Counted from the first letter of the stretch, positions 6,817-24,981 are shown. The stretch: DNA of 38,222 bases from an uncultured Bacteroidia bacterium (GCA_903881215.1 CAIRSO010000128.1:1-38222); one strand, 5' to 3'. Numbers and translations are program-made. The notes: a model not told the origin generated them from the letters alone.

Positions 6817-6827
6817 CGCTCAGTTAA

Positions 6828-8926: not shown

Positions 8927-8928
8927 AG

Positions 8929-9156
8929 CTAATCCTTTGGACTGTTTCTCTCTATTTCATTGAGGAGCCGCAAGGTCTCTTCTGCCTCTTCAGCATCGAC
9001 CTTCTGAATGGCGAATCCGGCATGAAGCATCACATAATCGCCGACATGAACGTCGTCCAGCATCAGCAGGCTTGCTTGATATTCAACATCTTCAATGGAA
9101 ACCAGGGCACTTGGTCCGTTTACACTGAGCACTTTTGCAGGTATGGCTAAACACAT
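8929..9156 (-). CDS. hypC: Hydrogenase assembly chaperone HypC
   Basis: N-terminal MCLAIP with the essential Cys2. 75 aa. 10-nt overlap with the hypF stop. Confidence 0.9.
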   Translation of the reverse strand: MCLAIPAKVLSVNGPSALVSIEDVEYQASLLMLDDVHVGDYVMLHAGFAIQKVDAEEAEETLRLLNEIERNSPKD

Positions 9157-11420: not shown

Positions 11421-11490
11421 CAGGTTTGTTCTTTGAATTTATGTAAAGATATAGATATTTATACCTACATTAGCTAGCAAATTACACTCC

Positions 11491-12221: not shown

Positions 12222-15200
12222 TTACGATGCCATCAATATCCGTTTCAACGTATCCTGCATAGCTGATTTGAATGCATCGTCCTTGGCGACCAGCCGGTAC
12301 AAATCGAGTTCGCTTTTGCGTTGTTTGGCCATCACTTCATCAAATATCTTTTTGAAGGCAATTTCGCGGTTCTGGCTATCCGCATTATCCGCGTATTTCT
12401 CCTTAAAATCCGGATGCGTCCTCATGCTTTGTGCCAGGTGAACGAACTTGACCCGCTGTTCTTCCGGAGTTGCTTCCCAGCCCTGGAACCAACGTTCATT
12501 AAAAGACCGGATGATTAAATCGAGGGGATCTTCAATAAGCTCACCTCCATGTGAACTACGGGGATTCGGATTTTGTGGTTCAAGTTCGGTTTCCGAAGCA
12601 TCCAGACCAATATTTGCACTTAACTTTACCCGCTCCAGTCCGTAGGTGGAAAGATCTACTGAATTCAACAATTCATCCAGGGCATCCTTCGTTGGGTCAA
12701 CGATAAGTAGTTTAGGAATCAGGAATTTCAAGAACCAGAAGAGTTTTTCCCATTTGACCACCTCATAAGGCAGGATGGAAGCCATCTGTCCGTAAATCTT
12801 CACGAATTGCTTCGCTTTGATTTTGAAGTCGGCTTTGGCATTGTCATCCAGTTCCAAACCGGAATTAAACCGGTCGGCAGCAAAGTCAATGATCGGGCTC
12901 AACTCCTGTGCATTCACACCCTTGAAATATTTCTCCACAAAATCCTCCACCTCCAACCATTCATACACACCAACATCGTCAAGGTTTGCTTTCAGTTCGT
13001 GCAAAACATTGACATCGGTTGCCCGGCTTAAGCTTGTTGCGGTATAGAAGGGATCAAACGATTCTTTGATATCATCGACCGAATTAAAGAAATCGAGCAC
13101 AAACAGATCTTCCGTCTTCTTGCCCAGTTTGTCTGCTGAGCGGTTTAGCCGAGATAAGGCCTGAACTGCCATGACATACTGAAGCTTCTTGTCCACATAC
13201 ATGGCGGTCAATTTGGGCTGATCGAAACCGGTCAGATACTTATTAGCAACCACCAACATCCTGTAATCATCGGTATCAAATTGATCCCTGGTATCTTTCT
13301 CTCCAAAACCATTGATGCTCTCTTCTGAGTATTCAATTCCATCCACCGTTTTCTTGCCTGAAAATGCGATCAGGACTTTAAATGGATCTCCTTTTGCCTT
13401 CAACAAATTGTGAATGGCAAAATAATAGCGGATGGCCGCTTCAATACTTTGAGTAGCTACCATTGCTTTGGCCTGTCCTTTCAGCTTCTTGGTGTTGACT
13501 ATCCGTGAGATAAAATGATCGAGCATGATCTCCGCTTTTGTAGCAATGGTCTGCTCGTGCCGCTCTACATAGGCTCTCAGCTTTTTTTGCGCCTTGATAG
13601 TGTCGAACAAAGGATTATCCTCTATTGACTTTTCGATCTCGTAATAACTCCTATAAGTAGTGTAATTGGCCAATACATCCAAGATAAACCCCTCTTCGAT
13701 GGCTTGTTTCATGGAGTAGAGATGAAACGGCTTGTATTTCCCGTCCTCCTGACATACGCCGAATTTTTCCAGCGTATTGTTTTTGGGGGTGGCAGTAAAT
13801 GCCAGGTAGGAGGCGTTGTTTCTCATTTTGCGCGAACGCATGGCTTCCAATATCTTGTCCTGTGGATCCGGATCCTCTTCTTCATTCCCGCTGTTTCCCA
13901 TGGCACGATTTAGATTGTCTGCTGCCGATCCGCTCTGACTGCTGTGGGCTTCGTCGATAATCACTGCGAATCGTTTGTCGCTCAGATCGGCAATTCCATC
14001 CACGATGAAAGGAAATTTCTGAATGGTGGTGATATTGATCTTTTTCCCACTCTCCAGATTCTCTTTCAGTTCTTTGGAGGAATAGGCCGCCGCAACAATA
14101 TTTTTGACTTCCGAGAAATCGCGGATGTTCTCACGTAACTGCTTATCCAACAATCGCCGGTCTGTTACCACAATCACAGAATCGAACAAAGGATTTGAAA
14201 TGCCCTTGTTCCCTGGTACCGCATCATTTTCCGGATAGGTTTCTATCAGTTGAAAAGCAGCCCAGGTTATAGAATTGGATTTGCCTGATCCGGCGGAATG
14301 CTGAATCAGGTAGGTTTGTCCGACCCCTTTGTGCGAGGCATCCGCAATGAGTTTGCGTACCACATCCATCTGGTGATATCGTGGAAAATAGAGGGTCTTC
14401 TTACTGAGCGAATCGGAATCTTTCCCGTCAAAACGGACAAAGTGCTGGATGATATTGGCCAAGCTCTGGCGGGTGAGCACTTCATCCCACAGATATGCTG
14501 TTTTATGCCCGAACGGGTTGGGTGGATTTCCCTTTCCGAAGTTATGGCCCAGATTGAAGGGCAAAAAGAAAGTTCCGGCACCATTCAATTTGGTGGTCAT
14601 GTACACTTCATCGGTATCTACTGCGAAATGGACGAGGCAACGGCCGAAATTCAACAGCGGCTGGGTGGTGTCTCTCTTGTATTTGTATTGATTTTGTCCG
14701 TGTACTTTGGCATTTTGTCCGGTCCAGTGATTTTTTAGTTCGAGCGTTGAGAAGGGCAAACCGTTCACAAACAAAACCATGTCGATCTCCTCTCCAGGGT
14801 TGTCCAGCGAATAGCGCAGCTGGCGGGTCACGCTGAACCGGTTGTTTTCGAAATTGGCTTTTACTGCATCGCTGCTGCTTGCCAACGGCAATACATAAAA
14901 CAAGGTGAAGCTTGCATCATCCACCTCCAGACCTTTGCGCAACAAACGGATGATGCCATACTTTTTGATCATCCGATCGAGCCGGTCCAGAATCTTCAGC
15001 TTCCAGTCGCTTTGCTTTTGCAGTTTGGCTAGTTCTTCTTTCTGGGTAGTTTCCAGGAAGCTCCAGAATAGCTTCTCATCGATGGCATATTTGGCATTGA
15101 AGTCGAAGGGTGATCCCATGAAATAACCTTTGCCGGTCCGGTACAATTCTGCCCTTTCAGTACCTGAGTCGACAGTTAGACCAAGCTCCCTCAGTTCCTC

Positions 15201-15269
15201 GAGGCATGAGCCGGTCAGGCGTTTTTCGATGGCCGATTCAAGGGCTTGTTCGTTGGTTAGGCTTGTCAT
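12222..15269 (-). CDS. hsdR: Type I restriction enzyme R subunit
   Basis: 1015 aa. Walker A QHSAGSGKS and DEAH box IIDEAHSS. N-terminal nuclease-like region. Typical type I HsdR C-terminal helical region. Co-oriented with hsdM and hsdS. Confidence 0.95.
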   Translation of the reverse strand: MTSLTNEQALESAIEKRLTGSCLEELRELGLTVDSGTERAELYRTGKGYFMGSPFDFNAKYAIDEKLFWSFLETTQKEELAKLQKQSDWKLKILDRLDRMIKKYGIIRLLRKGLEVDDASFTLFYVLPLASSSDAVKANFENNRFSVTRQLRYSLDNPGEEIDMVLFVNGLPFSTLELKNHWTGQNAKVHGQNQYKYKRDTTQPLLNFGRCLVHFAVDTDEVYMTTKLNGAGTFFLPFNLGHNFGKGNPPNPFGHKTAYLWDEVLTRQSLANIIQHFVRFDGKDSDSLSKKTLYFPRYHQMDVVRKLIADASHKGVGQTYLIQHSAGSGKSNSITWAAFQLIETYPENDAVPGNKGISNPLFDSVIVVTDRRLLDKQLRENIRDFSEVKNIVAAAYSSKELKENLESGKKINITTIQKFPFIVDGIADLSDKRFAVIIDEAHSSQSGSAADNLNRAMGNSGNEEEDPDPQDKILEAMRSRKMRNNASYLAFTATPKNNTLEKFGVCQEDGKYKPFHLYSMKQAIEEGFILDVLANYTTYRSYYEIEKSIEDNPLFDTIKAQKKLRAYVERHEQTIATKAEIMLDHFISRIVNTKKLKGQAKAMVATQSIEAAIRYYFAIHNLLKAKGDPFKVLIAFSGKKTVDGIEYSEESINGFGEKDTRDQFDTDDYRMLVVANKYLTGFDQPKLTAMYVDKKLQYVMAVQALSRLNRSADKLGKKTEDLFVLDFFNSVDDIKESFDPFYTATSLSRATDVNVLHELKANLDDVGVYEWLEVEDFVEKYFKGVNAQELSPIIDFAADRFNSGLELDDNAKADFKIKAKQFVKIYGQMASILPYEVVKWEKLFWFLKFLIPKLLIVDPTKDALDELLNSVDLSTYGLERVKLSANIGLDASETELEPQNPNPRSSHGGELIEDPLDLIIRSFNERWFQGWEATPEEQRVKFVHLAQSMRTHPDFKEKYADNADSQNREIAFKKIFDEVMAKQRKSELDLYRLVAKDDAFKSAMQDTLKRILMAS

Positions 15270-17110
15270 CTTCGCAATTTATTTTCCAGTTGTTTTTTTA
15301 AGGCTATTCCTTTGGCAGTTAGTCGGTATTTCTGATTTGGATGATTTGGTTTATCAGGATGCGTCAAAGCAATATACCCCAAATCGAGCGACGGCAAAAT
15401 GTATTGCTTTCTGAAAAAATCATCATGTTTAAGATCGAGTTTTTGCATAATTTCTGACCGTTTCATCTCGCCCTCCAATGCAACTAACACCCGCTGGATC
15501 TCCTCCTTGATCAATTGGGTAACTTCCCCAGTAGCTTCCCCACTAGCTTCCCCACTAACAGGTTCAGAAATTTCTTCGGGCAAACGTTTTACGGCGGCCA
15601 ACAGGGGCAACATTAACTGCTCTTTCAGTGCGATTCCTTTGGTTGTTAAACGGTATTTTTGGTGCTTGCTTTTCGATTTGCCGGCCAGTACCATCTCTAT
15701 TAAATACTCTGACAATGAGGGGTCAAGATAATTTTTTACAAAGTGGGATCTGTTTTTTAGTTCAAGAATTTCCATAAGCTGGATCCTGCTCATTTCATCT
15801 TGAATTATCATCACCAGTCGATGCGGAAGTTCTGCAATTGCTGCATAAGTTCCGGTTTTATCATGTACGGTATCATGTATGGTATCATGTACGGTACCTG
15901 CCGAAGGTCTCTGAACAGTCAATTTAAATCCTTCCTCCAAGGAAATGGAAAGTGGCTCTAAACCTCTTTCTTTCAATAGTTTGTACATTTCTACAGTACC
16001 CGTGCCGTATCTTTCAATATCTCCTGTCAAAAACAGACAACCTGCAAGCAATGGATTGTGCGGATAAGAACTATGGGGATCTTTTAAATCACTAATATCC
16101 AATTCCGGCGGTAAACTGCCCGGATTGCATATTTCAATCCGGTCTTTAAAAACAGCAACCTGAATACTGCCTTTGCTGTTGTAATCGCGGTGAGCAACGG
16201 CATTGATAATGGCCTCAGCGATAACAGCCCTGGGAATTTCATAAATGGTCTCCACTTGGTTGCTGTGTTCTCTCGTACCCGTTGATAAGCTTAATTTGGA
16301 GAGGATAAAATTAACGGCTTCATCTGCCACTTCGAAGGCCGTACCTCCATATTCTTTGAAGTCTGGTATGGGCTTTTGAACCTGTAACCCATGAAAATGA
16401 GCACATTTGATGGTTGAAGATGGAAAGTACAACTGAGGATCGGGGGCAAAAGCCAACAGCGCACTGTTTACAAGTTTGCCTTCCCGGGTCATTTTCAAAT
16501 GTTTCAATACCCGTTCGACCGAAGCGGTCTCTTTAAGCGGGAAGTTGCGTTTTTTTCGGGCAATGGCTATAAACTCCCTGATTTTACTCTCATCCAGCGA
16601 GTTGAAACTTGCATTAGGATGCAAACTCTCGTCAAAATCGCTGCTCTCTATTTTGCCCGTTTGCTTTAAAAACAGTACACAAGAACCGTAAACTTCCTGT
16701 TTGAGGGTTTCAATATCGGTAAATTTCTTGCGAGAAACATCCTGCTCAATTTTCCGGATGAAGGCCATTTCTTTTAGTTGGCGTTCAATCCCGTTCAGAT
16801 TTTTAATGAAAATCCATCGGGGCAAATGCTCACTTTTGGCTTGATCGTATTCTCTTTCGGTAGGAGAAATACCTTCCGAATCTTCGTACCCGTACGTTTC
16901 ACCAATCAGGCCAATATAGATATCTGATTCTGCGACCTCACTGAGGTACACTTTCCCGGGCGAATGTGTCGTGGCCGGAACCTCTTCAAACAAAAAGGGC
17001 TCAAAGAAAGTGCCCAACAAAGGATCATGCCTCAGGTAATGGGCTAATTCTTTCCGTTCCAGGGCAAATTCGCTTTGGACACTCGATATGAAAACTTTGA
17101 ACCTTTTCAC
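15266..17110 (-). CDS. Uncharacterised R-M-embedded protein: DUF4062-like N-terminus + HATPase_c_4 (RecG-C-terminal-like) core + two tandem winged-helix repeats
   Basis: N-terminus KVFISSVQSEFALERKEL...SDIYIGLIGETYGY...SPTEREYDQA resembles DUF4062. The core AIAEAIINAVAHRDY...DRIEICNPGSLP...NPLLAG...ERYGTGT resembles the HATPase_c_4 module of AlbA_2/RecG-like regulators. Two roughly 90-aa repeats each end in QKYRLT(T/A)KGIALK. The stop overlaps the hsdR ATG (ATGA at 15266-15269). Confidence 0.6.
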   Translation of the reverse strand: MKRFKVFISSVQSEFALERKELAHYLRHDPLLGTFFEPFLFEEVPATTHSPGKVYLSEVAESDIYIGLIGETYGYEDSEGISPTEREYDQAKSEHLPRWIFIKNLNGIERQLKEMAFIRKIEQDVSRKKFTDIETLKQEVYGSCVLFLKQTGKIESSDFDESLHPNASFNSLDESKIREFIAIARKKRNFPLKETASVERVLKHLKMTREGKLVNSALLAFAPDPQLYFPSSTIKCAHFHGLQVQKPIPDFKEYGGTAFEVADEAVNFILSKLSLSTGTREHSNQVETIYEIPRAVIAEAIINAVAHRDYNSKGSIQVAVFKDRIEICNPGSLPPELDISDLKDPHSSYPHNPLLAGCLFLTGDIERYGTGTVEMYKLLKERGLEPLSISLEEGFKLTVQRPSAGTVHDTIHDTVHDKTGTYAAIAELPHRLVMIIQDEMSRIQLMEILELKNRSHFVKNYLDPSLSEYLIEMVLAGKSKSKHQKYRLTTKGIALKEQLMLPLLAAVKRLPEEISEPVSGEASGEATGEVTQLIKEEIQRVLVALEGEMKRSEIMQKLDLKHDDFFRKQYILPSLDLGYIALTHPDKPNHPNQKYRLTAKGIALKKQLENKLRR

Positions 17111-17204
17111 AATCCGGATGGTTTATGTTTTAAAGATAGCAATTTTTTTGTATCTTCTTTTCAATCAATTCATTTCGACCAATTCATCGTGATCAAACAA
17201 CAGT

Positions 17205-17227
17205 GACAAGGCATGCCTTGTCTCTAC
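17205..17227. repeat. Palindromic repeat GACAAGGCATGCCTTGTC(TCTAC) abutting the hsdS stop
   Basis: 18-bp perfect palindrome at 17205-17222. Same family as the two copies at 19974-20031. Overlaps the hsdS TAG stop (17224-17226). Confidence 0.85.
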
Positions 17228-18489
17228 GTGCATTTAACCACCATTATTTTCCCCGTTACCGCAGCATCAATCAAACTCGCCTTGTACTCCTTCAACTTCT
17301 CAATTTCCTGCTCTTTGAGGGAAATGGCGGTGGCGATTTTAACGTCAGTATGTTTTAGATATGAGACAATTTCATCTTGTTCTTCAATTGGAGGAAATCC
17401 GATTGCCATTTCGAAAAACATAGTTGAATAGAATCTTAGTCTTGAGGAGTGCAGCCCTGTTGAAACCCGATTGTAATGTGCAATGTAATTTATACTTCCC
17501 AAGAGACTCTCAATATACCAGGAGTTGAATATTCTCTTTTTTTGTCTAAAGATTGCGTATGATGGGCTTACAATTCCAGTACGATCAGATACCCCTAAGG
17601 CACCCATCCATGCCCACATAATATTAAATATCAAATCATCTTTCTGGCATAATTTTGAATTCGAATAATCTTCAGCCAGAAACATGGATACGTTCTTTTC
17701 AGAACGAGGTGTAACTCCCGTTAAATGAGATACTGATAGTAGTTCCTCCTCCCCGTTTACTGAACGGTCATTTATTTCATCGAAAAGATATTTGGCTCTT
17801 TTTACATCCCAATGCTCCGGAATCTCCCCAATCCATTCCACTCCGCTCTCTTTTAGTATGACATTGGGGTTTAGCCCACGGGTAACGGCGCGGTGAATCA
17901 ATATTTGTCTGCGTTCCTTGAGCAGTTCGATTTGTTTTTCCTTGATGCCAATGGCCTGGTCGATTTGGGCAGTTTTGCGGTCGAGAAAGGTGGCGATGGC
18001 GGTTTGCTCTGAGAGAGGAGGAATCAATGTAAGTAAGTTATTAAGGATATTTCCACTGACATGAGGGATACCCATGCCAATGGTTTTTTGTTTTAATTCA
18101 GTTTCTAAAAATTTTGAATAATACCACGCAAAATATTTTTCAATATTTTTAAAACTTATCTGAGCAACAGTTGATGAAATAACTCCGTTTCTACTTTTAA
18201 TGAATTCACCAGCATTAGATCCATCCCACAGTAACAAAATTTCTTCTTTTTCAATGATTTTTGCATTTTTATCCAACACCCATTGATTTTCTTCACCTCC
18301 TCTTAAGTATTCCATACTCATATAAGGAGGTAAATTTGAATCGTTTAGCGTTACAATTTTTTGTGGTAATTTACCTTTTTGAGTATCAGCAATAAATTTA
18401 AATCGTTTCACTTCCCAATGTTCCGGAATATCACCCAGCCATTCCACTTCGGAGGGTTTATAGGCGGGGTATTTTGGAAGCTTGTTCAT
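17224..18489 (-). CDS. hsdS: Type I restriction-modification specificity subunit
   Basis: Two target-recognition halves, each introduced by the duplicated motif IPEHWEVKRFKF / IPEHWDVKRAKYLF. Conserved coiled-coil spacers PPLSEQTAIATFLD and PPIEEQDEIVSYL. AT-rich. Confidence 0.9.
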   Translation of the reverse strand: MNKLPKYPAYKPSEVEWLGDIPEHWEVKRFKFIADTQKGKLPQKIVTLNDSNLPPYMSMEYLRGGEENQWVLDKNAKIIEKEEILLLWDGSNAGEFIKSRNGVISSTVAQISFKNIEKYFAWYYSKFLETELKQKTIGMGIPHVSGNILNNLLTLIPPLSEQTAIATFLDRKTAQIDQAIGIKEKQIELLKERRQILIHRAVTRGLNPNVILKESGVEWIGEIPEHWDVKRAKYLFDEINDRSVNGEEELLSVSHLTGVTPRSEKNVSMFLAEDYSNSKLCQKDDLIFNIMWAWMGALGVSDRTGIVSPSYAIFRQKKRIFNSWYIESLLGSINYIAHYNRVSTGLHSSRLRFYSTMFFEMAIGFPPIEEQDEIVSYLKHTDVKIATAISLKEQEIEKLKEYKASLIDAAVTGKIMVVKCT

Positions 18490-18519
18490 GCGTTGTCTGG
18501 TTGGGTAATAAAATCGGTC

Positions 18520-18558
18520 TCTTTCAATGGTGCAACCACCGGTTGCGTAATTGAAAGA
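18520..18558. promoter_or_regulatory. Nested stem-loop in the ORF6N-hsdS intergenic spacer
   Basis: tctttcaat (18520-18528) pairs perfectly with attgaaaga (18550-18558). Inner stem gcaacc (18532-18537) pairs with ggttgc (18541-18546) around loop acc. A second palindrome, atgaaatatttcat, lies at the ORF6N stop around 18580-18593. Confidence 0.5.
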
Positions 18559-18589
18559 CTGAAATTTTGGCTCTCCTGAATGAAATATT

Positions 18590-19510
18590 TCATGGTTTTA
18601 TTAAATTTAAAATTACTGAAGCGAAGTCATCCATTCTTGAAAAGGCGAACCATTTTTTGCCCAGGTCTTTAAGCGAGGCACCAATATGGTACAATTCCTT
18701 GTTGTCGAGCAATAAAAATCGGTCGTGCGTATGGGCTATGGTTTTTATTTCAATGGTTGGATATTGGAGATTGTGTTTTTTTAGATCCAACTGCAATTGT
18801 GGATTAATTTGCCTGGTGTAAACGGAGGCCGAAACATCCTTGTTGCGCTTGGCCAATAAAACCAGCACAGATTCGTCGATGTAATTGTCAATGAGTATGA
18901 TGCTTGTTTTTGCCTCCTTAATCAGTTCGGCCACAAATACATAAGCATCAAATATATGTCCTTCAAAGAATATTCCTTTATCGGGTACTTTTTCATGTCG
19001 TTCCAATGCATTGAAAACCTGTTCGAATTTTTGATCAGTCTCCAATTGCTTCATTTCAATTTTATCCAATCGCTGAAATAATCCTGCATTTGCCAATACC
19101 AATTTACGCATTTCAACAAATGCATTCATAATCTGGATACTCACCTTTATTGCTGTTTCGCTGCGTAATACTGCCGATAACATAGCCACTCCCTGCTCGG
19201 TAAACGCAAAAGGCCTCGAAGAAGAATGTTTTAATGATTTGATCCGGTCACAATTTGTGACCAGTTCATTTTTCTCATTTTCAGTTAATTGAAACCTAAA
19301 GATGTCAGGGAACCGTTCAATATTTCGCTTTACCGCTTGATTCAAAACTTTTGTATCCACCGAATATACCTCGGATAAATCCTTATCGATCATCACCTGG
19401 ACTCCTCTAATGGTGAAAATCCTGTTTTCAATTTCCTTTTGGTTGATTGCTATTTCCATACCATGCAGTTTTTTATCAATGTCGCCACACGTAGCGACAA
19501 TTTGAAACAT
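18590..19510 (-). CDS. ORF6N (KilA-N-like) DNA-binding domain protein with an uncharacterised C-terminal domain
   Basis: ENRIFTIRGVQVMIDKDLSEVYSVDTKVLNQAVKRNIERFPDIFRFQLT matches the ORF6N domain pattern. The C-terminal approximately 150 aa carry IILIDNYIDESVL...HTHDRFLLLD...IGASLKDLGKKWFAF. The start may be the internal ATG at 19459 (MEIAINQ). Confidence 0.7.
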   Translation of the reverse strand: MFQIVATCGDIDKKLHGMEIAINQKEIENRIFTIRGVQVMIDKDLSEVYSVDTKVLNQAVKRNIERFPDIFRFQLTENEKNELVTNCDRIKSLKHSSSRPFAFTEQGVAMLSAVLRSETAIKVSIQIMNAFVEMRKLVLANAGLFQRLDKIEMKQLETDQKFEQVFNALERHEKVPDKGIFFEGHIFDAYVFVAELIKEAKTSIILIDNYIDESVLVLLAKRNKDVSASVYTRQINPQLQLDLKKHNLQYPTIEIKTIAHTHDRFLLLDNKELYHIGASLKDLGKKWFAFSRMDDFASVILNLIKP

Positions 19511-19513
19511 CGA

Positions 19514-22006
19514 CTATCCCAATTTTAATATTTCACGGATTAAACCATCGCTTTCGCTTTCCAGTTTAAGGATATCGGCACTAACTTCCTCAATACTCCG
19601 AAGCGGTTTGTGCTGATAGAAATACTTGTTGAAGCTGATTTCGTACCCGATTTTGGTGGCATCCAGATTGATCCAGGCTTCCGGAACATGAGGCTTGACT
19701 TCGCGCAAAAAGTAATCGTAGATATTTTCTTTCAGCGGCACATTCTCGGTATCACGCAAATCACTTTCGGTTTCATATTCGAGGTATTCACCTTTTTTTG
19801 CAGTTGGGAAATAACCGTAGTCGGGCAACTGGCTTTCTTTGCAGCCCAAATGATCGAGCAGTCGCTCCAGCTTTTCGCCGGTCAGTTTGGTGGGGCCTTT
19901 GATTACCTTTTCGGCAGAGGCGTCGTACCAGGAGACCGCGTTCAGGATGGCATTTTTTTCGGAGGATGACACCGTAGAGACAAGGCATGACTTGTCTCCG
20001 CGAACAGAAACAGGGCATGCCTTGTCTCTACAGCATGCATCAACCTTATCCCTGAAAACATTGAAATCGTTGTATTCGGCAGTGCCAACGACCTTCATCA
20101 ACTGTTTGGCTGTTTTCAGCAAGTCGAGTTGCTTTTGCCAGGTTTCTTTGCTGACCAGGGCACGGCTTTGTTTGGCGTTGAGATTGAGTTCCTGTTTTTC
20201 AGCCCATTCCAGTATTGCCTTTTCATGTTTTGAAAGGTCGGAATAAACCTCTTCCCCAAACTGTTCAAATGCCCACTCCATCGGTTCCCGCAGGGTTTTG
20301 TCGAAACGCAGTCCGGCAATCCGCTCTTCCGTGAACTGAGCCTTCAGCCTCTTGGGACGTTCCACAGTCACTTTATAGTAGCCAAAATCGACGTTATCGA
20401 AAACCTTGGAGGAGATTGTACCTGAACTGTTTTCGATGCTGATCTCTCTGGAGGCAACCGACTTCATTTCGGCATACACATTCACTATTTCCCTGATATG
20501 TTCGGGGGAAAATTCGCAGTTCTTGTTTCCCAGGTTTTTCCGGAGTTTGCGGTAAAGCTGTCCGGCATCGATCAGCTGGACCTTCCCCTTTCGGTGAGGA
20601 GCCTTGTTATTGCTCAGTATCCAGACGTAAGTAGTGATCCCGGTATTGTAGAACAGATTGTTGGGCATTTGAACGATTGCTTCGAGCCAGTCGTTTTCGA
20701 TGATGTAGCGGCGGATATTGCTTTCCCCACCTCCGGCATCGCCGGTAAACAGGCTGGATCCGTTGTGTACCGAGGCAATCCGGGATCCCGGCTGACTTTG
20801 CGTCAGCGGTTTCATCTGATTATTATTTTGCTTTTCATTTGCCAGATGGAACTCCCAATAATCATCCGCTTGTGTGTGCAGAACTTTCTCTGGTCGTTTC
20901 ATCTTGTTGACCATCTCCATCAAAAACAGCAACTGTCCGTCTGATGAGCGGGGAGTGGCATCGGCATCTTCCAGGATACCCCAATAATTTTTGAGCTGGA
21001 TCTGGAAGCGTGAATCGATAATGTCTTTCCCGTCCTTGATGTATTTCAACTCGCTGGCCCATGATTTGCCATACGGTGGATTGGAAAGCATAAAATCGAA
21101 AGTGGTGCCTGCAAATTCATCGGTCGATAAGGTAGAGCCTACGCGGATATTCTCCGGATTGTTGCCCTTGATCATCATATCTGATTTGCAGATGGCGTAG
21201 GTTTCGTCGTTGATCTCCTTCCCGTAGAGATAGACATCACCCTTTGCCCGGATTTCACCCTCCTCGTCTTTCACGAAGTTTTGCGATTCGGTCAACATGC
21301 CTCCGCTCCCACAGGCCGGATCGTATATTGTCATCACAGGAGGAAGCATATTTTTCACCGGTTCAAAAATGATATGGGTCATCAGGTCAATCACCTCCCT
21401 GGGGGTGAAGTGTTCACCGGCCTCTTCGTTGTTCTCCTCGTTGAATTTTCGGATCAGCTCTTCAAAGACATATCCCATTCCCAGGTTGGTCAGGGGGGGT
21501 AGTTTCCTGCCATCCGGATCAACCTTTTCGGCAGAGGTCAGGTTGATATATGGAGAGGTAAACTTCTCCAGCACATTCAGCAATACATCTTTTGAGGCCA
21601 TGTGCCGCACCTGGCTGCGAAGCTTAAATTTATCAATAATCTCTTTTACATTGCTGCTGAAGCCATTCAAATAGTCTTCGAAATTGGCCTGAAGAATCTG
21701 TTGGCTATTGGTGGCAGTATCGTGCAGGCGTTGCAGGGTCCATGAACTTGTGTTGTAAAAAACATAACCCGACACATCAATCAAACCGTTTTCATCCCAT
21801 TCTGTAAATCCTGCCTCATCACGCTGAAAGGCCACCTCCTCCAGAACGGCATCCTTGGAAGGCTCGAGCAGGGCATCAAGGCGCCGCAGAACCACCATCG
21901 GAAGAATGACATCGCGGTATTTTCCGCGGACATAAATATCTCGCAGACAATCATCCGCTATGGACCAGATAAAGGAAACCAGTTTGTTGTGGGAGGCAGT
22001 ATTCAT
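19514..22006 (-). CDS. hsdM: Type I restriction-modification DNA methyltransferase subunit (long form)
   Basis: N-terminus LVSFIWSIADDCLRD, AdoMet site DPACGSGGML, catalytic NPPYG, C-terminal IGYEISFNKYFY. I prefer ATG 22006 over the tracked TTG at 22039. Confidence 0.9.
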   Translation of the reverse strand: MNTASHNKLVSFIWSIADDCLRDIYVRGKYRDVILPMVVLRRLDALLEPSKDAVLEEVAFQRDEAGFTEWDENGLIDVSGYVFYNTSSWTLQRLHDTATNSQQILQANFEDYLNGFSSNVKEIIDKFKLRSQVRHMASKDVLLNVLEKFTSPYINLTSAEKVDPDGRKLPPLTNLGMGYVFEELIRKFNEENNEEAGEHFTPREVIDLMTHIIFEPVKNMLPPVMTIYDPACGSGGMLTESQNFVKDEEGEIRAKGDVYLYGKEINDETYAICKSDMMIKGNNPENIRVGSTLSTDEFAGTTFDFMLSNPPYGKSWASELKYIKDGKDIIDSRFQIQLKNYWGILEDADATPRSSDGQLLFLMEMVNKMKRPEKVLHTQADDYWEFHLANEKQNNNQMKPLTQSQPGSRIASVHNGSSLFTGDAGGGESNIRRYIIENDWLEAIVQMPNNLFYNTGITTYVWILSNNKAPHRKGKVQLIDAGQLYRKLRKNLGNKNCEFSPEHIREIVNVYAEMKSVASREISIENSSGTISSKVFDNVDFGYYKVTVERPKRLKAQFTEERIAGLRFDKTLREPMEWAFEQFGEEVYSDLSKHEKAILEWAEKQELNLNAKQSRALVSKETWQKQLDLLKTAKQLMKVVGTAEYNDFNVFRDKVDACCRDKACPVSVRGDKSCLVSTVSSSEKNAILNAVSWYDASAEKVIKGPTKLTGEKLERLLDHLGCKESQLPDYGYFPTAKKGEYLEYETESDLRDTENVPLKENIYDYFLREVKPHVPEAWINLDATKIGYEISFNKYFYQHKPLRSIEEVSADILKLESESDGLIREILKLG
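19974..20031. repeat. Two tandem copies of the GAGACAAGGCATGCCTTGTCTC palindromic repeat, in frame inside hsdM
   Basis: gtagagacaaggcatgacttgtctc at 19974-19998 and agaaacagggcatgccttgtctctac at 20006-20031. On the - strand they are translated as ...CPVSVRGDKSCLVSTV... without breaking the hsdM frame. Confidence 0.85.
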
Positions 22007-22245
22007 GGAAATTGGAGCTTTAAAGAAGTCGGATCGCAAATGTGGTTACTTTAATTCCATTCTCATTGTGCGAAGCAATTCAATCAGGTTAGAGAATTCA
22101 ATATTAGTCAATAAAAGTAAAGAATATTCCTAAATTTCCGGGGATCGGCACCAAAATAATATCCCCTGTAATCCTTATGCAAGAAACTATTCCTACCTTT
22201 ACCTGAGCTAATCCGGAAGTTATCATCATTAAGTCAAATCCTGTT

Positions 22246-24981
22246 TTGAAAAAGATTCAAATTTCACCATTTTACAGGATTGTCGTTCTCCTAATTTTAA
22301 TCATCCTTTCGACTAAAACATCGCAATCACAGGAGATTCCGGAGATAAAAATCACCAGGACATTTAATCAGACCCCACTTTCTGAGTTTTTCAGTTACCT
22401 GGAAGAAGCGTTTGGCATCAATTTTTTTTACAAGGAGGAGTGGATAAAAACTTCTGTGGTTAGCGGTGCATTCAAGAACAGTCCGGTTACCCAGGTGCTG
22501 AACCAGGTATTGACCGACAAAGACCTAAATTTCCGATTCTTCGATCTGGATATGGTGTTCGTCTATCCTAAAAGCCCGGACGGAAATGTAGTGCTGAGCC
22601 GCAACGAATCGCAACTGATTGTCATTGGCGATCCGCTGAATCAGGTGCAAAACAAAAGGGCCAAACTACAGGGGAAAGTGCTCGATGGCAAAACCGGTGA
22701 TCCGCTACCGGGGGCAGTTGTCTACAATCCGGAAACGAAAACCGGAGTGGTTTCGGATGCGAAAGGAAAATACATGATCGAGCTGCCTACCGGTGAACTG
22801 AACCTCAGAATCTCCTTCATGAATTTTGAAAACAAAAATCTCAGGATTCAGCTTATTCAGGATGGGAACGCCGATCTGGAGATTTTTGAAAAGACCCAGC
22901 AGATTGAAGAAGTCACGATCATGGGCGACAATAAACGTGCCTCAAAAGCCCAGATGAGCATGATCAAGATGAGTGCCGTTTCCATCAAGGAGCTGCCGGT
23001 CCTGATGGGCGAAGCCGATCTGATCAAAGGCATGGTGATGATGCCGGGCGTTCAAAGTGTTGGCGAGATGTCGTCAGGGTTTAATGTTCGCGGTGGAAAT
23101 ACGGATCAAAACCTCGTCCTGGTGAATGGTGCCCCACTATTTAATACCACCCATCTTTTTGGTTTCTTTTCGATGGTTAACCAGGATGCCGTCTCGGATG
23201 TGACGCTTTTCAAAGGCGGGATGCCGGCCTCATTCGGCGAACGGACTTCCTCCGTTATGGAGATTCAACTCAAGGATGGCTCCAACAAATATCTGAGCAT
23301 CAATGGCGGCATCGGACTTATCAACAGCCGGCTTTCCATCGAAGGACCGTTCGCCAAAAAGAAGAAAAGTTCTTTCATGGTAGGCGGAAGAAGCACTTAT
23401 TCGGACTGGTTGCTCCAGAAAACCAAGAACCCAACTTTCATGAACAGCGTGGCGCATTTTTATGATTTGAATGGCACGGCAACGATTGAAATAAGTCCGA
23501 AAGATCACCTGAAGTTGACTGGATACCTTAGCTCCGATGTTTTCAATCTCAACACCAGCACACTCTACCAATATGCAAATTACCTGGGTTCGCTCAACTG
23601 GAAGCTGAACCTGACCGACAAAATCATCTCGCAATTGTCGCTGGCCTACTCAAAATATGATCTGAAGGTGGACCAGAAAGACCCTTATCTACCGCTGGAT
23701 GACTATACCCTGAAATCAGGCATCCAATATGGGAGCCTAAAGTACAACTTGCTTTACTATCCCAACGAGAAACATCACATCAGTGCCGGATTACAAGCCA
23801 TAAGCTACCGCATCAATCCGGGTGAAATCGCTCCAACACTATCCAATTCGAACGTATTCAAATCCTCGATGCAGAAGGAGCAGTCGGCCGAGGTGGCACT
23901 GTTTGCGGACGATAACTTTGACTTGTCGGAGAAGGTCTCCGTTAGCATCGGATTTCGGTACACCGGCTTTTTCAATTTCGGACCCGGAGTGGTGTACAAT
24001 TATGCCGATGGAGTTTCCAAAAGCACCCACTCCATTATCGACTCAACCCTTTTCAATTCGGGACAGATCATTAAGTCTTACCAGGCACCGGAGCCCCGGC
24101 TGGCCCTCAAATTATTGCTGCCTAACGGCGGATCGCTGCGTTTAAATTATCAGCAGACCCACCAATTTATCAGTCAGATTTCCAACACAGCAGTTATTTC
24201 GCCGGCCGATTACTGGAAATCTGCCGGAACTTATCTCGCTCCGCTGATCAATGACCAGATCGCTTTTGGCTTTTTCAAGACACCAACCAAAGGGAATTTT
24301 GAGTTTTCGGCGGAGGCCTACTACAAAAAACTTCAGAATTTGCCGGAATACAAAAACGGCGCACTGCTCCTGATGAACACCCACCTCGAAACCGACTACA
24401 TCCCGGCAAGCGGCTATTCCTACGGACTGGAACTGATGGCCAAAAAGAGTTCCGGAAAGTTGAATGGCTGGATCAGCTATACCTTTTCACGCACTTTCCA
24501 GAAAGCCAATGGGCCGTTCCCGGAAGAGAAAATCAACAGAGGGGCCTTCTACCCTTCCATCTATGACAAGCCGCATGATCTTTCAGTGGTAACAAATTAC
24601 AATATCAGCAGGCGATGGCGCTTTTCGGGCAATTTTGTCTATTCATCGGGAAGGCCGATTACACTGCCGGAGCAAAAATACCTGCTGGGAGGAAATCAAA
24701 TCGTGTACTTTTCGGATAGAAACAGCTACCGGATGCCTTCTTACCACCGGATGGATGTCGCGATAACATTGGACGAAAACCTCAAGAGAAAACGGTCGTG
24801 GAAAGGAAGCTGGACCTTCTCGGTTTACAACCTTTATGGACGTAAAAATCCCTATTCGGTCTTTTACCGCAAGGACGCCTCCCTCCAAACCATGGATAAG
24901 GACAAGACACAATATGCCATCTATAAATTATCGATTATTGGCGTTCCCGTTCCTTCTATTACCTACAATTTTAAATTCTGA
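22246..24981 (+). CDS. TonB-dependent outer-membrane receptor with N-terminal STN-like and CarboxypepD_reg domains
   Basis: Signal peptide. STN-like region (PLSEFFSYLEEAFGINFFY). CarboxypepD_reg region (LQGKVLDGKTGDPLPGAVVYN...DAKGKYMIELP). Plug region. Long beta-barrel ending in the aromatic terminus YNFKF. TTG start as tracked. Confidence 0.85.
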   Translation: MKKIQISPFYRIVVLLILIILSTKTSQSQEIPEIKITRTFNQTPLSEFFSYLEEAFGINFFYKEEWIKTSVVSGAFKNSPVTQVLNQVLTDKDLNFRFFDLDMVFVYPKSPDGNVVLSRNESQLIVIGDPLNQVQNKRAKLQGKVLDGKTGDPLPGAVVYNPETKTGVVSDAKGKYMIELPTGELNLRISFMNFENKNLRIQLIQDGNADLEIFEKTQQIEEVTIMGDNKRASKAQMSMIKMSAVSIKELPVLMGEADLIKGMVMMPGVQSVGEMSSGFNVRGGNTDQNLVLVNGAPLFNTTHLFGFFSMVNQDAVSDVTLFKGGMPASFGERTSSVMEIQLKDGSNKYLSINGGIGLINSRLSIEGPFAKKKKSSFMVGGRSTYSDWLLQKTKNPTFMNSVAHFYDLNGTATIEISPKDHLKLTGYLSSDVFNLNTSTLYQYANYLGSLNWKLNLTDKIISQLSLAYSKYDLKVDQKDPYLPLDDYTLKSGIQYGSLKYNLLYYPNEKHHISAGLQAISYRINPGEIAPTLSNSNVFKSSMQKEQSAEVALFADDNFDLSEKVSVSIGFRYTGFFNFGPGVVYNYADGVSKSTHSIIDSTLFNSGQIIKSYQAPEPRLALKLLLPNGGSLRLNYQQTHQFISQISNTAVISPADYWKSAGTYLAPLINDQIAFGFFKTPTKGNFEFSAEAYYKKLQNLPEYKNGALLLMNTHLETDYIPASGYSYGLELMAKKSSGKLNGWISYTFSRTFQKANGPFPEEKINRGAFYPSIYDKPHDLSVVTNYNISRRWRFSGNFVYSSGRPITLPEQKYLLGGNQIVYFSDRNSYRMPSYHRMDVAITLDENLKRKRSWKGSWTFSVYNLYGRKNPYSVFYRKDASLQTMDKDKTQYAIYKLSIIGVPVPSITYNFKF

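What the first reader, a model, noticed from the sequence alone, without database searches (positions are those of the whole stretch)
12222..22039. Type I R-M operon interleaved with two non-canonical genes: candidate R-M-coupled accessory defence module
Five co-oriented minus-strand genes form one compact unit. After hsdM there is a 3-nt gap to the ORF6N-domain gene. A 100-nt spacer with hairpins leads to hsdS. A 113-nt spacer with a palindromic repeat leads to the 614-aa multidomain gene, whose stop overlaps the hsdR ATG (ATGA, 15266-15269). That overlap suggests translational coupling. The 614-aa gene occupies the slot between hsdS and hsdR. In the E. coli prr locus (hsdM-hsdS-prrC-hsdR) the same slot holds the latent anticodon nuclease PrrC, which the R-M complex silences and a phage anti-restriction factor unleashes. 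Neither inserted protein resembles PrrC/RloC or any characterised defence effector I recognise. Both combine nucleic-acid-binding modules with uncharacterised domains. The hypothesis is a back-up or sensor module functionally wired to the R-M complex.
Basis: partly seen in the sequence, partly recalled or inferred. Interest (0 to 1): 0.8.

Follow-up and report, generated by a model that had tools for sequence, protein, structure and literature searches.

The report
Restriction operon carrying two defence genes
A bacterial type I restriction-modification operon carries two extra anti-phage genes, one from an already tested candidate family and one a predicted NAD-destroying enzyme in a new domain combination; such nesting is a documented pattern, so this is interesting but not a new kind of system.

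Summary
The five minus-strand genes, the spacers, the hairpins and the ATGA stop/start overlap are all present. hsdM, hsdS and hsdR make an ordinary type I R-M system.

The ORF6N gene matches PADLOC candidate PDC-S05 over its full length (E=1.9e-121). A PDC-S05 representative already protects E. coli as a single gene. Its C-terminal half is predicted to have a phospholipase-D-like fold with an invariant HxR(x)4D motif.

The 614-aa gene has four parts:
- a DUF4062/NIR TIR-like NADase domain, with an invariant Glu87 at the catalytic position;
- a GHKL ATPase (HATPase_c_4);
- two winged-helix domains.
This is the COG2865/'Schlatpase' chassis with the Schlafen effector replaced.

Both families are strongly enriched next to hsd genes: 35% of the 614-aa family and 22% of the ORF6N family are adjacent. 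At least half of the copies have no hsd gene within 10 kb. In a close relative, the same locus keeps HsdR at 98% identity but has only a truncated remnant of the 614-aa type gene, without the NADase domain.

The best reading is two self-sufficient defence genes nested in an R-M operon, as in published 'guilt-by-embedding' work. A PrrC-like wired back-up is not excluded but is not favoured.

The parts
19514..22006 (-). hsdM, the type I R-M methyltransferase subunit. It is 830 aa from the ATG at 22006; the longest ORF starts at a TTG at 22039.
   Evidence: Pfam N6_Mtase 2.2e-58 and HsdM_N 2.7e-23. PADLOC MTase_I PDLC03029 5.7e-258. Start position.
18590..19459 (-). PDC-S05-type single-gene defence candidate. 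It is 289 aa from Met18; the longest ORF runs to 19510. Architecture: ORF6N DNA-binding domain, coiled coil, PLD-like domain.
   Evidence: PADLOC PDC-S05 PDLC04869 E=1.9e-121 over residues 19-298. Pfam ORF6N 2.1e-29. Homologues start at MEI....
19169..19426 (-). ORF6N (KilA-N/Rha-like) DNA-binding domain, residues 29-114 of the 306-aa ORF.
   Evidence: Pfam PF10543, 102 bits against a cutoff of 27.8.
18593..18988 (-). Predicted phospholipase-D-like domain, residues ~175-306. H262-x-R264-x4-D269, H275, G277, S279 and K281 are invariant or nearly so.
   Evidence: AlphaFold2 block pLDDT is about 90 over most of this region. Foldseek hits FAM83/DUF1669, F13, PLD2, NucT, Zucchini and PLD3/4 at E 2e-5 to 1e-3; full-length top hits are TrmBL2/TrmB. 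Conservation is 74-78 of 78 homologues per residue.
18520..18558 (.). Imperfect hairpin (18-nt arms, 3-nt loop) in the ORF6N-hsdS spacer.
   Evidence: the repeat finder I1, 83% complementary. Function not tested.
17224..18489 (-). hsdS, the specificity subunit (421 aa, two target-recognition domains).
   Evidence: Pfam Methylase_S 2.8e-20. PADLOC Specificity_I PDLC03191 1.3e-122 over residues 2-418.
17202..17225 (.). Palindrome and terminator-like hairpin (GACAAGGCATGCCTTGTC plus a T-rich tail) directly after the hsdS stop. It lies at the left breakpoint of homology to the sister locus L292.
   Evidence: DNA homology to L292 ends at window position 17234.
15266..17110 (-). 614-aa gene ('X614'): DUF4062/NIR NADase, middle domain, GHKL ATPase and two Fic-like_C winged-helix domains.
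   Evidence: Pfam DUF4062 3.4e-20, HATPase_c_4 4.2e-16, Fic-like_C 5.5e-40 in two stretches. AlphaFold2 mean pLDDT 84.7. Foldseek top hit is 3lmm DIP2311.
16661..17098 (-). DUF4062/NIR TIR-like NADase domain, residues ~5-150. The predicted catalytic Glu87 is the codon at 16850-16852.
   Evidence: The profile matches the solved KpSwz TIR/DUF4062 structure 10wc at E=2.4e-10. E87 is invariant in 75 of 75 homologues and is followed by Y or F. Foldseek hits TIR-STING, nucleoside 2-deoxyribosyltransferase, BcmB and TIR domains.
15911..16618 (-). Middle domain plus GHKL (HATPase_c_4) ATPase, residues ~165-400. The N-box (E299, N303), G1 (N329-P-G331) and G2 (G369-T-G371) motifs are present.
   Evidence: Pfam PF13749 over residues 315-396. 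The motifs are invariant in 74-76 of 77 homologues. 32% identity, collinear, with a canonical SLFN_AlbA_2-HATPase_c_4-HTH protein. PADLOC pAgo model hit over residues 164-333.
15275..15829 (-). Two tandem Fic-like_C winged-helix domains (residues ~428-500 and 536-612) joined by a disordered acidic linker.
   Evidence: Pfam PF21247, two stretches. The profile hits the C-terminal wHTH of Fic protein 4rgl at 1.9e-18. Most homologues have only one copy.
15266..15269 (-). ATGA: the X614 stop overlaps the hsdR start, consistent with translational coupling.
   Evidence: The same kind of overlap (-4 to -14 nt) joins X614 to hsdR in L001, L004, L021, L066, L073 and L292.
12222..15269 (-). hsdR, the restriction/translocase subunit (1015 aa).
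   Evidence: Pfam HSDR_N, SWI2_SNF2, ResIII and T1R_D3-like. PADLOC REase_I 8.6e-39. TIGR00348 scores 213 bits, below its cutoff of 284.55.

Best explanation
The locus is an ordinary type I R-M system (HsdM, HsdS, HsdR) whose two internal junctions have each been occupied by a self-sufficient single-gene anti-phage module. This is the documented pattern of defence genes embedded in defence operons.

Module 1 (hsdM|hsdS junction) is a PDC-S05-family protein. An ORF6N DNA-binding domain and a coiled coil, which probably dimerises, position a PLD-like domain. Its invariant HxR(x)4D...H.G.S.K pocket most likely acts on or binds nucleic-acid phosphate. The likely activity is that of a Nuc/BfiI/Zucchini-type metal-independent nuclease acting on phage DNA.

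Module 2 (hsdS|hsdR junction) is a DUF4062/NIR NADase fused to the GHKL-ATPase plus winged-helix chassis of COG2865/'Schlatpase' proteins. The proposed sequence is:
1. The middle domain and winged helices sense an infection cue.
2. [quoted passage not shown]
3. This brings the TIR-like NADase domains together and switches them on.
4. NAD+ is hydrolysed and the infected cell arrests (abortive infection).

Embedding gives co-transcription, co-transfer and layered defence: restriction first, NAD+ depletion or a second nuclease behind it. X614 is translated just ahead of, and coupled to, hsdR.

Shown here: the domain content, conservation of the catalytic and ATP-binding residues, effector swapping on the chassis, and enriched but non-obligate hsd linkage. 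Taken from the literature on other family members: NADase activity of DUF4062, GHKL-driven oligomerisation, and phage protection by PDC-S05. Inferred: the trigger, nuclease activity of the PLD-like domain, and independence from HsdMSR for these particular genes.
For: - PDC-S05 match over the full length, E=1.9e-121. A PDC-S05 representative alone lowers plating efficiency of T7 and T5 about 1000-fold and T4 about 10-fold in E. coli B (PMC12881386).
- PLD-like fold, with H262, R264, D269, H275, G277, S279 and K281 conserved in 74-78 of 78 homologues (four of them in every homologue that has the position), whether hsd-linked or not.
- Full-length PDC-S05 homologues stand alone on plasmids, next to integrases or a Septu-like pair.
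- X614: DUF4062 is above the Pfam cutoff. Its profile matches the solved KpSwz TIR/DUF4062 structure. E87 is invariant in 75 of 75 homologues and the GHKL motifs are invariant or nearly so in both linked and unlinked copies.
- DUF4062 is a proven NADase effector in single-gene systems.
- The same chassis carries SLFN_AlbA_2, a cytidine deaminase or DUF4062 at its N-terminus. ATP-bound GHKL drives oligomerisation and effector activation in a Schlatpase protein.
- Linkage among loci with at least 3 kb on both sides: 18 of 52 X614 copies and 6 of 27 ORF6N copies are adjacent to hsd genes, while 26 of 52 and 18 of 27 have no hsd gene anywhere within 10 kb.
- Non-hsd neighbours are largely other defence genes.
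- hsd linkage is scattered across both family trees.
- The sister locus L292 keeps HsdR at 98% and HsdM at 93% identity but has only a truncated, 44%-identical X614-type remnant with no NADase domain.
- Of the four closest X614 relatives examined (72-77% identity), three are outside R-M loci.
Against: - No experiment exists on these two genes or on the DUF4062-GHKL-wHTH architecture.
- The validated PDC-S05 member had a RhuM-type rather than an ORF6N-type N-terminus.
- The PLD-like domain has Arg where the HKD motif has Lys, and it gives no sequence-level PLD match. It could be a ligand-binding rather than a catalytic domain, as in TrmB.
- hsd linkage is far above chance. X614 is joined to hsd genes by 4-nt overlaps at both junctions in distant phyla. 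This is stronger operon integration than a recently dropped-in cassette would show, and it leaves room for functional coupling.
- The X-then-hsdR order is conserved in the whole window-like R-M clade (L001, L004, L073, L292).
Confidence: 0.65

Rival explanations
1. PrrC-like guard. X614, and possibly the PDC-S05 protein, is held inactive by physical association with the HsdMSR complex. It fires, by NAD+ depletion or nuclease activity, when a phage anti-restriction factor disables the R-M enzyme.
For: - hsd adjacency is 35% for X614 and 22% for ORF6N, against a few percent expected for any defence gene. The background figure of 3.9% comes from Le Mouellic et al..
- 4-nt ATGA/GTGA overlaps join X614 to hsdS, hsdM or hsdR in more than 10 loci from different phyla.
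- The X-then-hsdR order is conserved in the window's R-M clade.
- The ORF6N gene always takes the hsdM-to-hsdS slot when it is embedded.
- PrrC shows such wiring can exist.
Against: - Half or more of the homologues have no hsd gene within 10 kb, yet keep every catalytic residue.
- The X614 slot varies: S-X-R, M-X-S and R-X-M all occur.
- Linkage is gained and lost repeatedly across the tree.
- The sister locus keeps a 98%-identical HsdR with a decayed X614-type gene.
- PDC-S05 and DUF4062 systems work as single genes in hosts lacking the partner R-M.
- PrrC itself is almost exclusively R-M-embedded, unlike these families.
- Neither protein matches a PADLOC PrrC or RloC model.
Confidence: 0.13
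2. The inserted genes are regulators, not effectors. X614 (COG2865, eggNOG category K) and the TrmB-like ORF6N protein would be DNA-binding transcription factors that control expression of the R-M operon, like C-proteins.
For: - Both have DNA-binding domains (ORF6N; two wHTH).
- The best full-length structural matches of the ORF6N protein are the TrmB/TrmBL2 regulators.
- Databases name the X614 family 'predicted HTH transcriptional regulator'. Payne et al. set the family aside for that reason.
- There are palindromes in the spacers upstream of hsdS and X614.
Against: - Invariant NADase Glu and GHKL ATP-binding motifs are unnecessary for a plain regulator.
- The N-terminal position is exchanged among known toxic effector domains: Schlafen RNase, deaminase and NADase.
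- A PDC-S05 member protects E. coli with no cognate R-M to regulate.
- Many homologues have no hsd genes nearby.
- The spacer palindrome is not conserved in the sister locus.
Confidence: 0.07
3. The inserted genes are selfish or decaying cargo. They would be passengers that landed in a recombination-prone R-M locus (the 'genomic sink' idea) and contribute nothing to defence in this host.
For: - The hsdS-hsdR slot is a recombination hotspot. The window and L292 share about 90% DNA identity on both sides but have unrelated or replaced content between 15377 and 17234, with a transposase-like ORF and a truncated X614-type gene in L292.
- GC content dips to 0.36 at 18-19 kb.
Against: - Both window genes are full-length, with all conserved motifs intact.
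- X614 is translationally coupled to hsdR.
- Both families are conserved across phyla at 40-99% identity, which implies purifying selection.
Confidence: 0.05

Closest known systems
PADLOC PDC-S05, a phage defence candidate from 'guilt-by-embedding' (Payne et al. 2024, bioRxiv 10.1101/2024.01.29.577857); a representative was tested in PMC12881386
   Same: The ORF6N gene matches model PDLC04869 over its full length (E=1.9e-121). It is a single gene embedded in a type I R-M system, as in the set from which the family was defined.
   Different: The tested member was described as carrying a Virulence_RhuM domain. This one has an ORF6N N-terminus and shares only the coiled coil and C-terminal domain with RhuM-annotated relatives. 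No mechanism is published. The PLD-like fold and the HxR(x)4D motif are inferred here.
DUF4062/NIR TIR-like NADase effectors: Swarozyc (KpSwz, PDB 10wc), Evangelion, Vulcan, Vesta, NIR-Avs2 (three 2026 bioRxiv preprints)
   Same: The N-terminal domain is above the Pfam DUF4062 cutoff and aligns to KpSwz residues 4-180. It has the conserved catalytic Glu followed by an aromatic residue and a TIR/NDT-like predicted fold. It is associated with defence islands.
   Different: The C-terminal part is not the Swarozyc or Evangelion auxiliary region, HEAT repeats or a STAND module. It is a GHKL ATPase plus winged helices. The main texts of the three papers do not mention this fusion or R-M embedding. 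NADase activity of this protein is untested.
COG2865 / 'Schlatpase' proteins (SLFN_AlbA_2 + GHKL HATPase_c_4 + HTH; structure 3lmm DIP2311; Kuzmenko et al. 2026; Taboada et al. 2025)
   Same: Collinear middle domain, HATPase_c_4 and C-terminal wHTH, with 32% identity over residues 229-371. 3lmm is the best structural match. Both are frequently embedded in type I R-M and BREX systems (Payne FAM_00002).
   Different: The defining Schlafen/AlbA_2 nuclease domain is absent and is replaced by DUF4062. The wHTH is of the Fic-like_C type and is duplicated here.
PrrC / EcoprrI (hsdM-hsdS-prrC-hsdR)
   Same: A non-R-M gene sits inside a type I R-M operon next to hsdR, with a potentially suicidal effector.
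   Different: There is no ABC-ATPase or anticodon-nuclease domain. Linkage to R-M is partial (35-50%), whereas PrrC is almost exclusively embedded. No evidence exists for masking by HsdMSR.
TrmB/TrmBL2 regulators and single-HKD PLD nucleases (Nuc/NucT, Zucchini, BfiI)
   Same: The ORF6N protein has a DNA-binding domain, a coiled coil and a PLD-like domain, like TrmBL2. The C-terminal fold superposes on NucT, Zucchini and PLD3/4, and an H-x-(K/R)-x4-D motif is present.
   Different: There is no detectable sequence similarity. Arg replaces the HKD Lys. The catalytic or ligand-binding status is unknown.

Membership tests
Type I restriction-modification system | HsdM with an N6-adenine methyltransferase domain and the HsdM N-terminal domain | tested here: met
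   Pfam N6_Mtase 198.5 bits and HsdM_N 83.5 bits, both above cutoff. PADLOC MTase_I 5.7e-258. TIGR00497 is below its equivalog cutoff, 98.9 against 242.75.
Type I restriction-modification system | HsdS specificity subunit with two target-recognition domains | tested here: met
   Pfam Methylase_S above cutoff. PADLOC Specificity_I PDLC03191 covers residues 2-418 at 1.3e-122.
Type I restriction-modification system | HsdR with an N-terminal nuclease domain and an SF2 helicase/translocase | tested here: met
   Pfam HSDR_N, SWI2_SNF2, ResIII and T1R_D3-like, all above cutoff. PADLOC REase_I 8.6e-39. TIGR00348 scores 213 bits, below its cutoff of 284.55.
Type I restriction-modification system | Sequence-specific methylation and ATP-dependent restriction | not testable with these tools
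   Requires methylome sequencing and restriction assays.
PADLOC PDC-S05 | Full-length match to a PDC-S05 HMM | tested here: met
   PDLC04869 E=1.9e-121, residues 19-298 against profile positions 9-292 of 306. Three further PDC-S05 models also hit.
PADLOC PDC-S05 | Anti-phage activity as a single gene | not testable with these tools
   Shown for one other representative in E. coli B (PMC12881386), not for this gene.
DUF4062 / NIR TIR-like NADases | Pfam PF13271 match above the gathering score | tested here: met
   72.5 bits against a cutoff of 24.7, residues 5-91.
DUF4062 / NIR TIR-like NADases | Conserved catalytic glutamate (KpSwz E97, PsAvs2 E108, Vulcan E98) | tested here: met
   E87 is invariant in 75 of 75 homologues and is followed by Y or F. 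It aligns with A84 of PDB chain 10wc_A. I read A84 as the E97A substitution of a Met+15-C construct; that offset is my inference. The neighbouring E85 is also Glu in this protein.
DUF4062 / NIR TIR-like NADases | TIR/NDT-like flavodoxin-type fold | tested here: met
   Foldseek hits include TIR-STING 9lmq (1.7e-4), nucleoside 2-deoxyribosyltransferase 8pqt, CMP N-glycosidase BcmB 4jen (target-normalised TM 0.72) and the IL-18Rbeta TIR domain.
DUF4062 / NIR TIR-like NADases | NAD+ hydrolysis to ADP-ribose and nicotinamide | not testable with these tools
   Biochemical assay needed.
Swarozyc (KpSwz) proper | Swarozyc-type C-terminal auxiliary domain that binds the phage portal | tested here: not met
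   The alignment to KpSwz covers only query positions 2-174. The C-terminal segment scores -0.4 bits.
Schlatpase / COG2865 | GHKL ATPase domain PF13749 with ATP-binding motifs | tested here: met
   HATPase_c_4 59.1 bits against a cutoff of 26. E299, N303, N329-P-G331 and G369-T-G371 are invariant or nearly so.
Schlatpase / COG2865 | N-terminal Schlafen AlbA_2 domain (PF04326) | tested here: not met
   No SLFN_AlbA_2 hit. DUF4062 occupies that position. Canonical relatives L137, L130 and L059 do have SLFN_AlbA_2.
PrrC/RloC anticodon nuclease | ABC-ATPase N-domain plus a C-terminal anticodon nuclease domain | tested here: not met
   PADLOC lists only three pAgo-associated models for X614 and only four PDC-S05 models for the ORF6N protein. 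Pfam shows no ABC ATPase in either.
PrrC/RloC anticodon nuclease | Near-exclusive embedding in type I R-M | tested here: not met
   18 of 52 X614 copies and 6 of 27 ORF6N copies are adjacent to hsd genes. 26 of 52 and 18 of 27 have no hsd gene within 10 kb.
PLD (HKD) superfamily nuclease | PLD fold | tested here: met
   Foldseek E 2e-5 to 1e-3 against FAM83, F13, PLD2, NucT, Zucchini and PLD3/4, with target-normalised TM 0.5-0.56 for the single-domain targets. This is a predicted structure only.
PLD (HKD) superfamily nuclease | HxK(x)4D(x)6GSxN catalytic motif | tested here: inconclusive
   The motif here is H262-D-R264-FLLL-D269-x7-G277-A-S279-L-K281, invariant or nearly so. Arg replaces Lys and the spacing is shifted by one. 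There is no sequence-level PLD hit.

The most novel reading that the evidence does not exclude
The DUF4062-GHKL-wHTH protein is a guard of the type I R-M enzyme. It is made in step with HsdR through translational coupling and kept silent by HsdMSR or by normally methylated or translocating DNA. It is switched on to deplete NAD+ when a phage anti-restriction protein (a DNA mimic such as Ocr or ArdA) or DNA-end signals from restriction appear. That would be an NADase counterpart of PrrC and would link R-M failure to abortive infection across many phyla.
Probability: 0.12. Interest if true: 0.7.

Novelty: new variant of a known kind. Interest (0 to 1): 0.36.

Why it matters
The locus is a clean natural example of layered immunity: a restriction system carrying a second nuclease-like defence and a predicted NAD+-depleting suicide module in its two internal junctions.

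The useful new points are specific rather than conceptual:
1. The COG2865/'Schlatpase' chassis is one of the most common gene families embedded in R-M and BREX systems, and has been set aside as a 'transcriptional regulator'. It exchanges its N-terminal effector among a Schlafen RNase, a cytidine deaminase and the newly recognised DUF4062 NADase. This argues that the whole chassis family is a sensor/switch for defence effectors.
2. PDC-S05 has published protection data but no mechanism. It now has a testable active-site hypothesis: a PLD-like HxR(x)4D pocket.
3. The hsdS-hsdR junction behaves as a hypervariable cargo slot in near-identical R-M loci.

If the minority 'guard' reading were right, it would generalise the PrrC principle to NAD+ depletion.

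Tried and rejected
- Sequence search of the ORF6N family profile against all PDB sequences found nothing even at E<=10. The PLD assignment therefore rests on predicted structure only.
- A Pfam scan at E<=1 found no PLDc or Virulence_RhuM hit in the window's ORF6N protein.
- I first assigned the catalytic Glu to E85 from the HMMER alignment to KpSwz. The wider homologue set shows E85 varies while E87 is invariant. I re-read the PDB chain as the E97A mutant and moved the assignment to E87.
- The sigma-70 promoter scan is uninformative: 12 sites against 18.5 expected, and the nearest homologues come from Bacteroidota, which the scan's consensus may not suit. Terminator-like sites are not enriched overall (15 against 12.3), so only the position of the hairpin after hsdS is used.
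- I searched for missed divergent hsd genes among the unlabelled immediate neighbours. No hsd family appears among the listed Pfam families, which cover every family matched by two or more neighbours; singleton families beyond the 25 listed were not shown.
- I tested whether hsd-linked copies form one clade. They do not: Fitch 16 changes against a null of 17.4±1.9 for X614, and 9 against 10.9±1.4 for ORF6N. The NJ trees are crude.
- Literature searches for 'COG2865', 'HATPase_c_4' and 'AlbA_2' returned nothing directly useful. The supplementary tables of Payne et al. are truncated in the held copy and do not show the PDC-S05 rows.
- No tRNA or integrase lies in the window, so I dropped the idea that the locus sits on an obvious integrative element.
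- X614 is nearly absent from viral contigs, with one full-length hit, so a phage-borne origin was not pursued.

Full report
**1. Observation.** The window contains five co-oriented minus-strand ORFs exactly where stated. They are hsdR 12222-15269, a 614-aa gene 15266-17110 (called X614 here), hsdS 17224-18489, an ORF6N-domain gene 18590-19510 and hsdM 19514-22039. The X614 stop and the hsdR start share ATGA at 15266-15269. The 113-nt hsdS/X614 spacer holds a 12-nt-arm palindrome (17202-17225), which also scores as a terminator-like hairpin with a T-rich tail directly after the hsdS stop. The 100-nt ORF6N/hsdS spacer holds an 18-nt-arm hairpin.

Two details need softening. Homologues and independent gene calls begin the ORF6N protein at Met18 (nt 19459), so its gap to hsdM is probably 54 nt rather than 3. 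hsdM probably starts at the ATG at 22006. The hairpin after hsdS hints at two transcription units (hsdM-ORF6N-hsdS and X614-hsdR), as in classical type I systems. That is inference, because terminator-like sites are no more frequent here than in shuffled sequence.

**2. The R-M genes.** HsdM, HsdS and HsdR carry the expected Pfam domains above cutoff and hit the PADLOC type I models. The NCBIfam equivalog models score below their cutoffs, so these are divergent but ordinary family members. The locus lies between a [NiFe]-hydrogenase/hypBEDF cluster and a TonB-dependent receptor. There is no tRNA in the window and no integrase among the flanking ORFs scanned.

**3. The ORF6N gene is PDC-S05.**
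- It matches PADLOC model PDLC04869 (PDC-S05) over its full length at E=1.9e-121.
- The PDC families were defined by Payne et al. (bioRxiv 10.1101/2024.01.29.577857) as genes embedded in BREX, DISARM and type I R-M systems.
- A PDC-S05 representative expressed alone in E. coli B lowered plating efficiency of T7 and T5 about 1000-fold and T4 about 10-fold (PMC12881386).
- The family is very large (more than 8000 hits) and 66-99% identical across Bacteroidota, Planctomycetota and others.
- AlphaFold2 gives an N-terminal ORF6N domain, a long helical segment and a confident C-terminal domain. That domain matches PLD-fold proteins: FAM83/DUF1669, vaccinia F13, PLD2, NucT, Zucchini and PLD3/4. The whole protein resembles TrmB/TrmBL2, which has a DNA-binding domain, a coiled coil and a PLD-like domain.
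- H262-x-R264-x4-D269, H275, G277, S279 and K281 are conserved in 74-78 of 78 homologues.
- There is no sequence-level PLD or PDB match. Arg also replaces the HKD Lys, so catalysis is plausible but unproven.
- The coiled coil and PLD-like part are shared with Bacteroides plasmid proteins annotated RhuM.

**4. X614 is a NADase on a GHKL chassis.**
- Pfam finds DUF4062 (residues 5-91), HATPase_c_4 (315-396) and two Fic-like_C winged helices. The model is confident, with mean pLDDT 84.7.
- The family profile hits the solved 'KpSwz TIR/DUF4062' structure 10wc at E=2.4e-10, and the COG2865 structure 3lmm.
- Three 2026 preprints show DUF4062 (renamed NIR) is a TIR-like NADase. It is the catalytic-Glu-dependent effector of Swarozyc, Evangelion, Vulcan, Vesta and an Avs2 protein.
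- In X614 the equivalent Glu is E87. It is invariant in 75 of 75 homologues, is followed by Y or F, and aligns with A84 of the deposited chain. I read A84 as the E97A mutation. My first assignment to E85 was wrong.
- The GHKL N-box, G1 and G2 motifs are invariant or nearly so.
- The region 229-371 is collinear with, and 32% identical to, a canonical SLFN_AlbA_2-HATPase_c_4-HTH protein.
- On this same chassis the N-terminal domain can be Schlafen/AlbA_2 (L137, L130, L059), a cytidine deaminase (L085, beside BREX BrxL) or DUF4062. This is the effector-swap signature of defence proteins.
- Kuzmenko et al. show that ATP binding by this GHKL domain drives tetramerisation and effector activation in a 'Schlatpase' protein. 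Taboada et al. show bacterial Schlafens are anti-phage effectors most often fused to this 'HisKinase(-HTH)' module.
- The main texts of the DUF4062 papers do not mention the GHKL fusion or R-M embedding.
- Payne's supplementary tables list the architecture (FAM_00002/CLU_00184) among embedded genes, with an eggNOG 'transcription' label.
- The family has about 425 clusters at 50% identity with E<=1e-30.

**5. How tightly are the genes tied to R-M?** I gene-called 80 species-level genome loci for X614 and 80 metagenome loci for the ORF6N family, then labelled hsd genes with iterated profiles.
- With at least 3 kb on both sides, 18 of 52 X614 copies are adjacent to an hsd gene and 26 of 52 have one within 10 kb. 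For ORF6N the figures are 6 of 27 and 9 of 27.
- This is far above the 3.9% background reported for any defence gene. Even so, half or more of the copies are unlinked.
- Among the unlabelled immediate neighbours, no hsd family appears in the listed Pfam families, which cover every family matched by two or more of them. They comprise SNF2/ResIII helicases, AAA_15/21 ATPases, UvrD-PDDEXK, caspase, PLDc_2, WYL, BrxL, YhcG, GmrSD, integrases and some housekeeping genes. L002 and L003 place X614 beside Wadjet JetABC.
- The X614 slot varies (S-X-R, M-X-S, R-X-M). ORF6N, when embedded, always sits between hsdM and hsdS.
- Catalytic residues are equally conserved in linked and unlinked copies. Linkage is scattered over both trees.
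- Plasmid copies of the ORF6N family stand alone.
- In favour of real operon integration, X614 is joined to hsdS, hsdM or hsdR by 4-nt overlaps in more than 10 loci from distant phyla. The X-then-hsdR order is kept throughout the window's own R-M clade (L001, L004, L073).

**6. A natural experiment.** L292 is the same chromosomal locus in a close relative. The flanks are identical, HsdR is 98% identical, HsdM 93% and the ORF6N protein 97%.
- DNA homology breaks at window position 17234 and resumes at 15377.
- In between, L292 has a 251-aa ORF with no Pfam hit. It has an HUH-like motif and three REP-like palindromes.
- L292 also has a 297-aa X614-type remnant. It retains the tail of the GHKL domain and two wHTH domains, has no NADase domain, and is only 44% identical to the window's X614.
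- The hsdS recognition domains are also replaced (40% identity).
- So the R-M scaffold persists while the X slot turns over and decays.
- Of the four closest intact relatives (72-77% identity), one is R-M-embedded. Three sit elsewhere: in a Gabija-like island, in a reverse-transcriptase/SbcCD-like island, and in a DUF4011/Trypsin/MComp1 island.

**7. Mechanism and verdict.** The best-supported reading (confidence about 0.65) is a type I R-M operon with two nested, self-sufficient defence genes. One is a PDC-S05 DNA-binding/PLD-like protein, probably a nuclease. The other is a sensor-switch-effector protein in which wHTH and middle-domain sensing, together with GHKL-ATP-driven oligomerisation, activate a DUF4062 NADase for abortive infection.

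Embedding provides co-expression, co-transfer and layered defence. The PrrC-like guard model remains possible (about 0.13) because of the strong enrichment and the translational coupling, but non-obligate linkage, slot turnover and single-gene activity in both families count against it. Regulator-only and junk-cargo readings are less likely.

The phenomenon and one of the two genes are already in the literature. The DUF4062-GHKL-wHTH architecture, the effector-swap evidence for the chassis and the PLD-like active-site hypothesis for PDC-S05 are modest new points. I classify the finding as a new variant of a known kind, with interest about 0.36.

Noticed in passing
L292 11340-13026 (sister locus of window 15266-17233): The same chromosomal R-M locus in a close relative has two different genes in place of X614. 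One is a 251-aa ORF with no Pfam hit and an HUH-like 'HVHGIL' motif; by eye it looks like an IS200/RAYT-type transposase. It contains three copies of the palindrome GAGACGCAAGATTTTGCGTCTC, at about 11478-11499, 11580-11601 and 11814-11853. The other is a truncated X614-type remnant lacking the NADase domain.
   Followed up: partly
L085 2044-3540: A protein with an N-terminal cytidine/dCMP deaminase domain on the same HATPase_c_4(+HTH) chassis, two genes upstream of a BREX BrxL gene. It is an effector-swap variant that may be an uncharacterised deaminase-based defence.
   Followed up: partly
window 19514-22006 (HsdM): HsdM is unusually long at 830 aa. The N6_Mtase match is split into two stretches, and the C-terminal part beyond about residue 572 has no Pfam match. 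Relatives in L001, L292 and L295 share this length class.
   Followed up: no
window 17202-17225 and 15377: The palindrome after hsdS lies at the left edge of the segment that is non-homologous to the sister locus. Homology resumes inside the last ~110 nt of X614. The X slot therefore behaves as a replaceable cassette, bounded by the hsdS 3' end and the hsdR translation-initiation region.
   Followed up: partly
L019 (6.8-kb Bacteroidales contig), around 3283-4770: A YhcG-like gene, a PDC-S05-type ORF6N gene and an X614 homologue are adjacent, with no hsd gene on the contig. The two cargo genes can travel together without R-M. L073 has the full M-ORF6N-S-X-R order.
   Followed up: no
L229-L291 (IMG/VR viral contigs): Dozens of viral contigs in IMG/VR encode short proteins matching only residues ~25-154 of the window's ORF6N protein (the ORF6N domain and the start of the helical segment). 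This suggests the defence protein's DNA-binding head is shared with phage regulators. Only one full-length X614 homologue (L164) occurs among the viral contigs.
   Followed up: no
window 1-12207 and 22246-26030: The flanks are ordinary chromosomal genes: the [NiFe]-hydrogenase large subunit (2551-4272), HypB/E/D/F (5595-11420), a His-rich 238-aa membrane protein (11491-12207; its counterpart in L292 has a weak DsbD_2 hit, and I take it for a metal transporter), a TonB-dependent receptor (22246-24981) and DUF4249. GC content dips to 0.36 at 18-19 kb, over ORF6N and hsdS.
   Followed up: partly
L294 4819-8860: Next to the 77%-identical X614 homologue P0005 is a Gabija-like pair in which the AAA_15/OLD-TOPRIM gene is split into several short ORFs. 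It looks fragmented or pseudogenised. An intact UvrD-like helicase follows.
   Followed up: no
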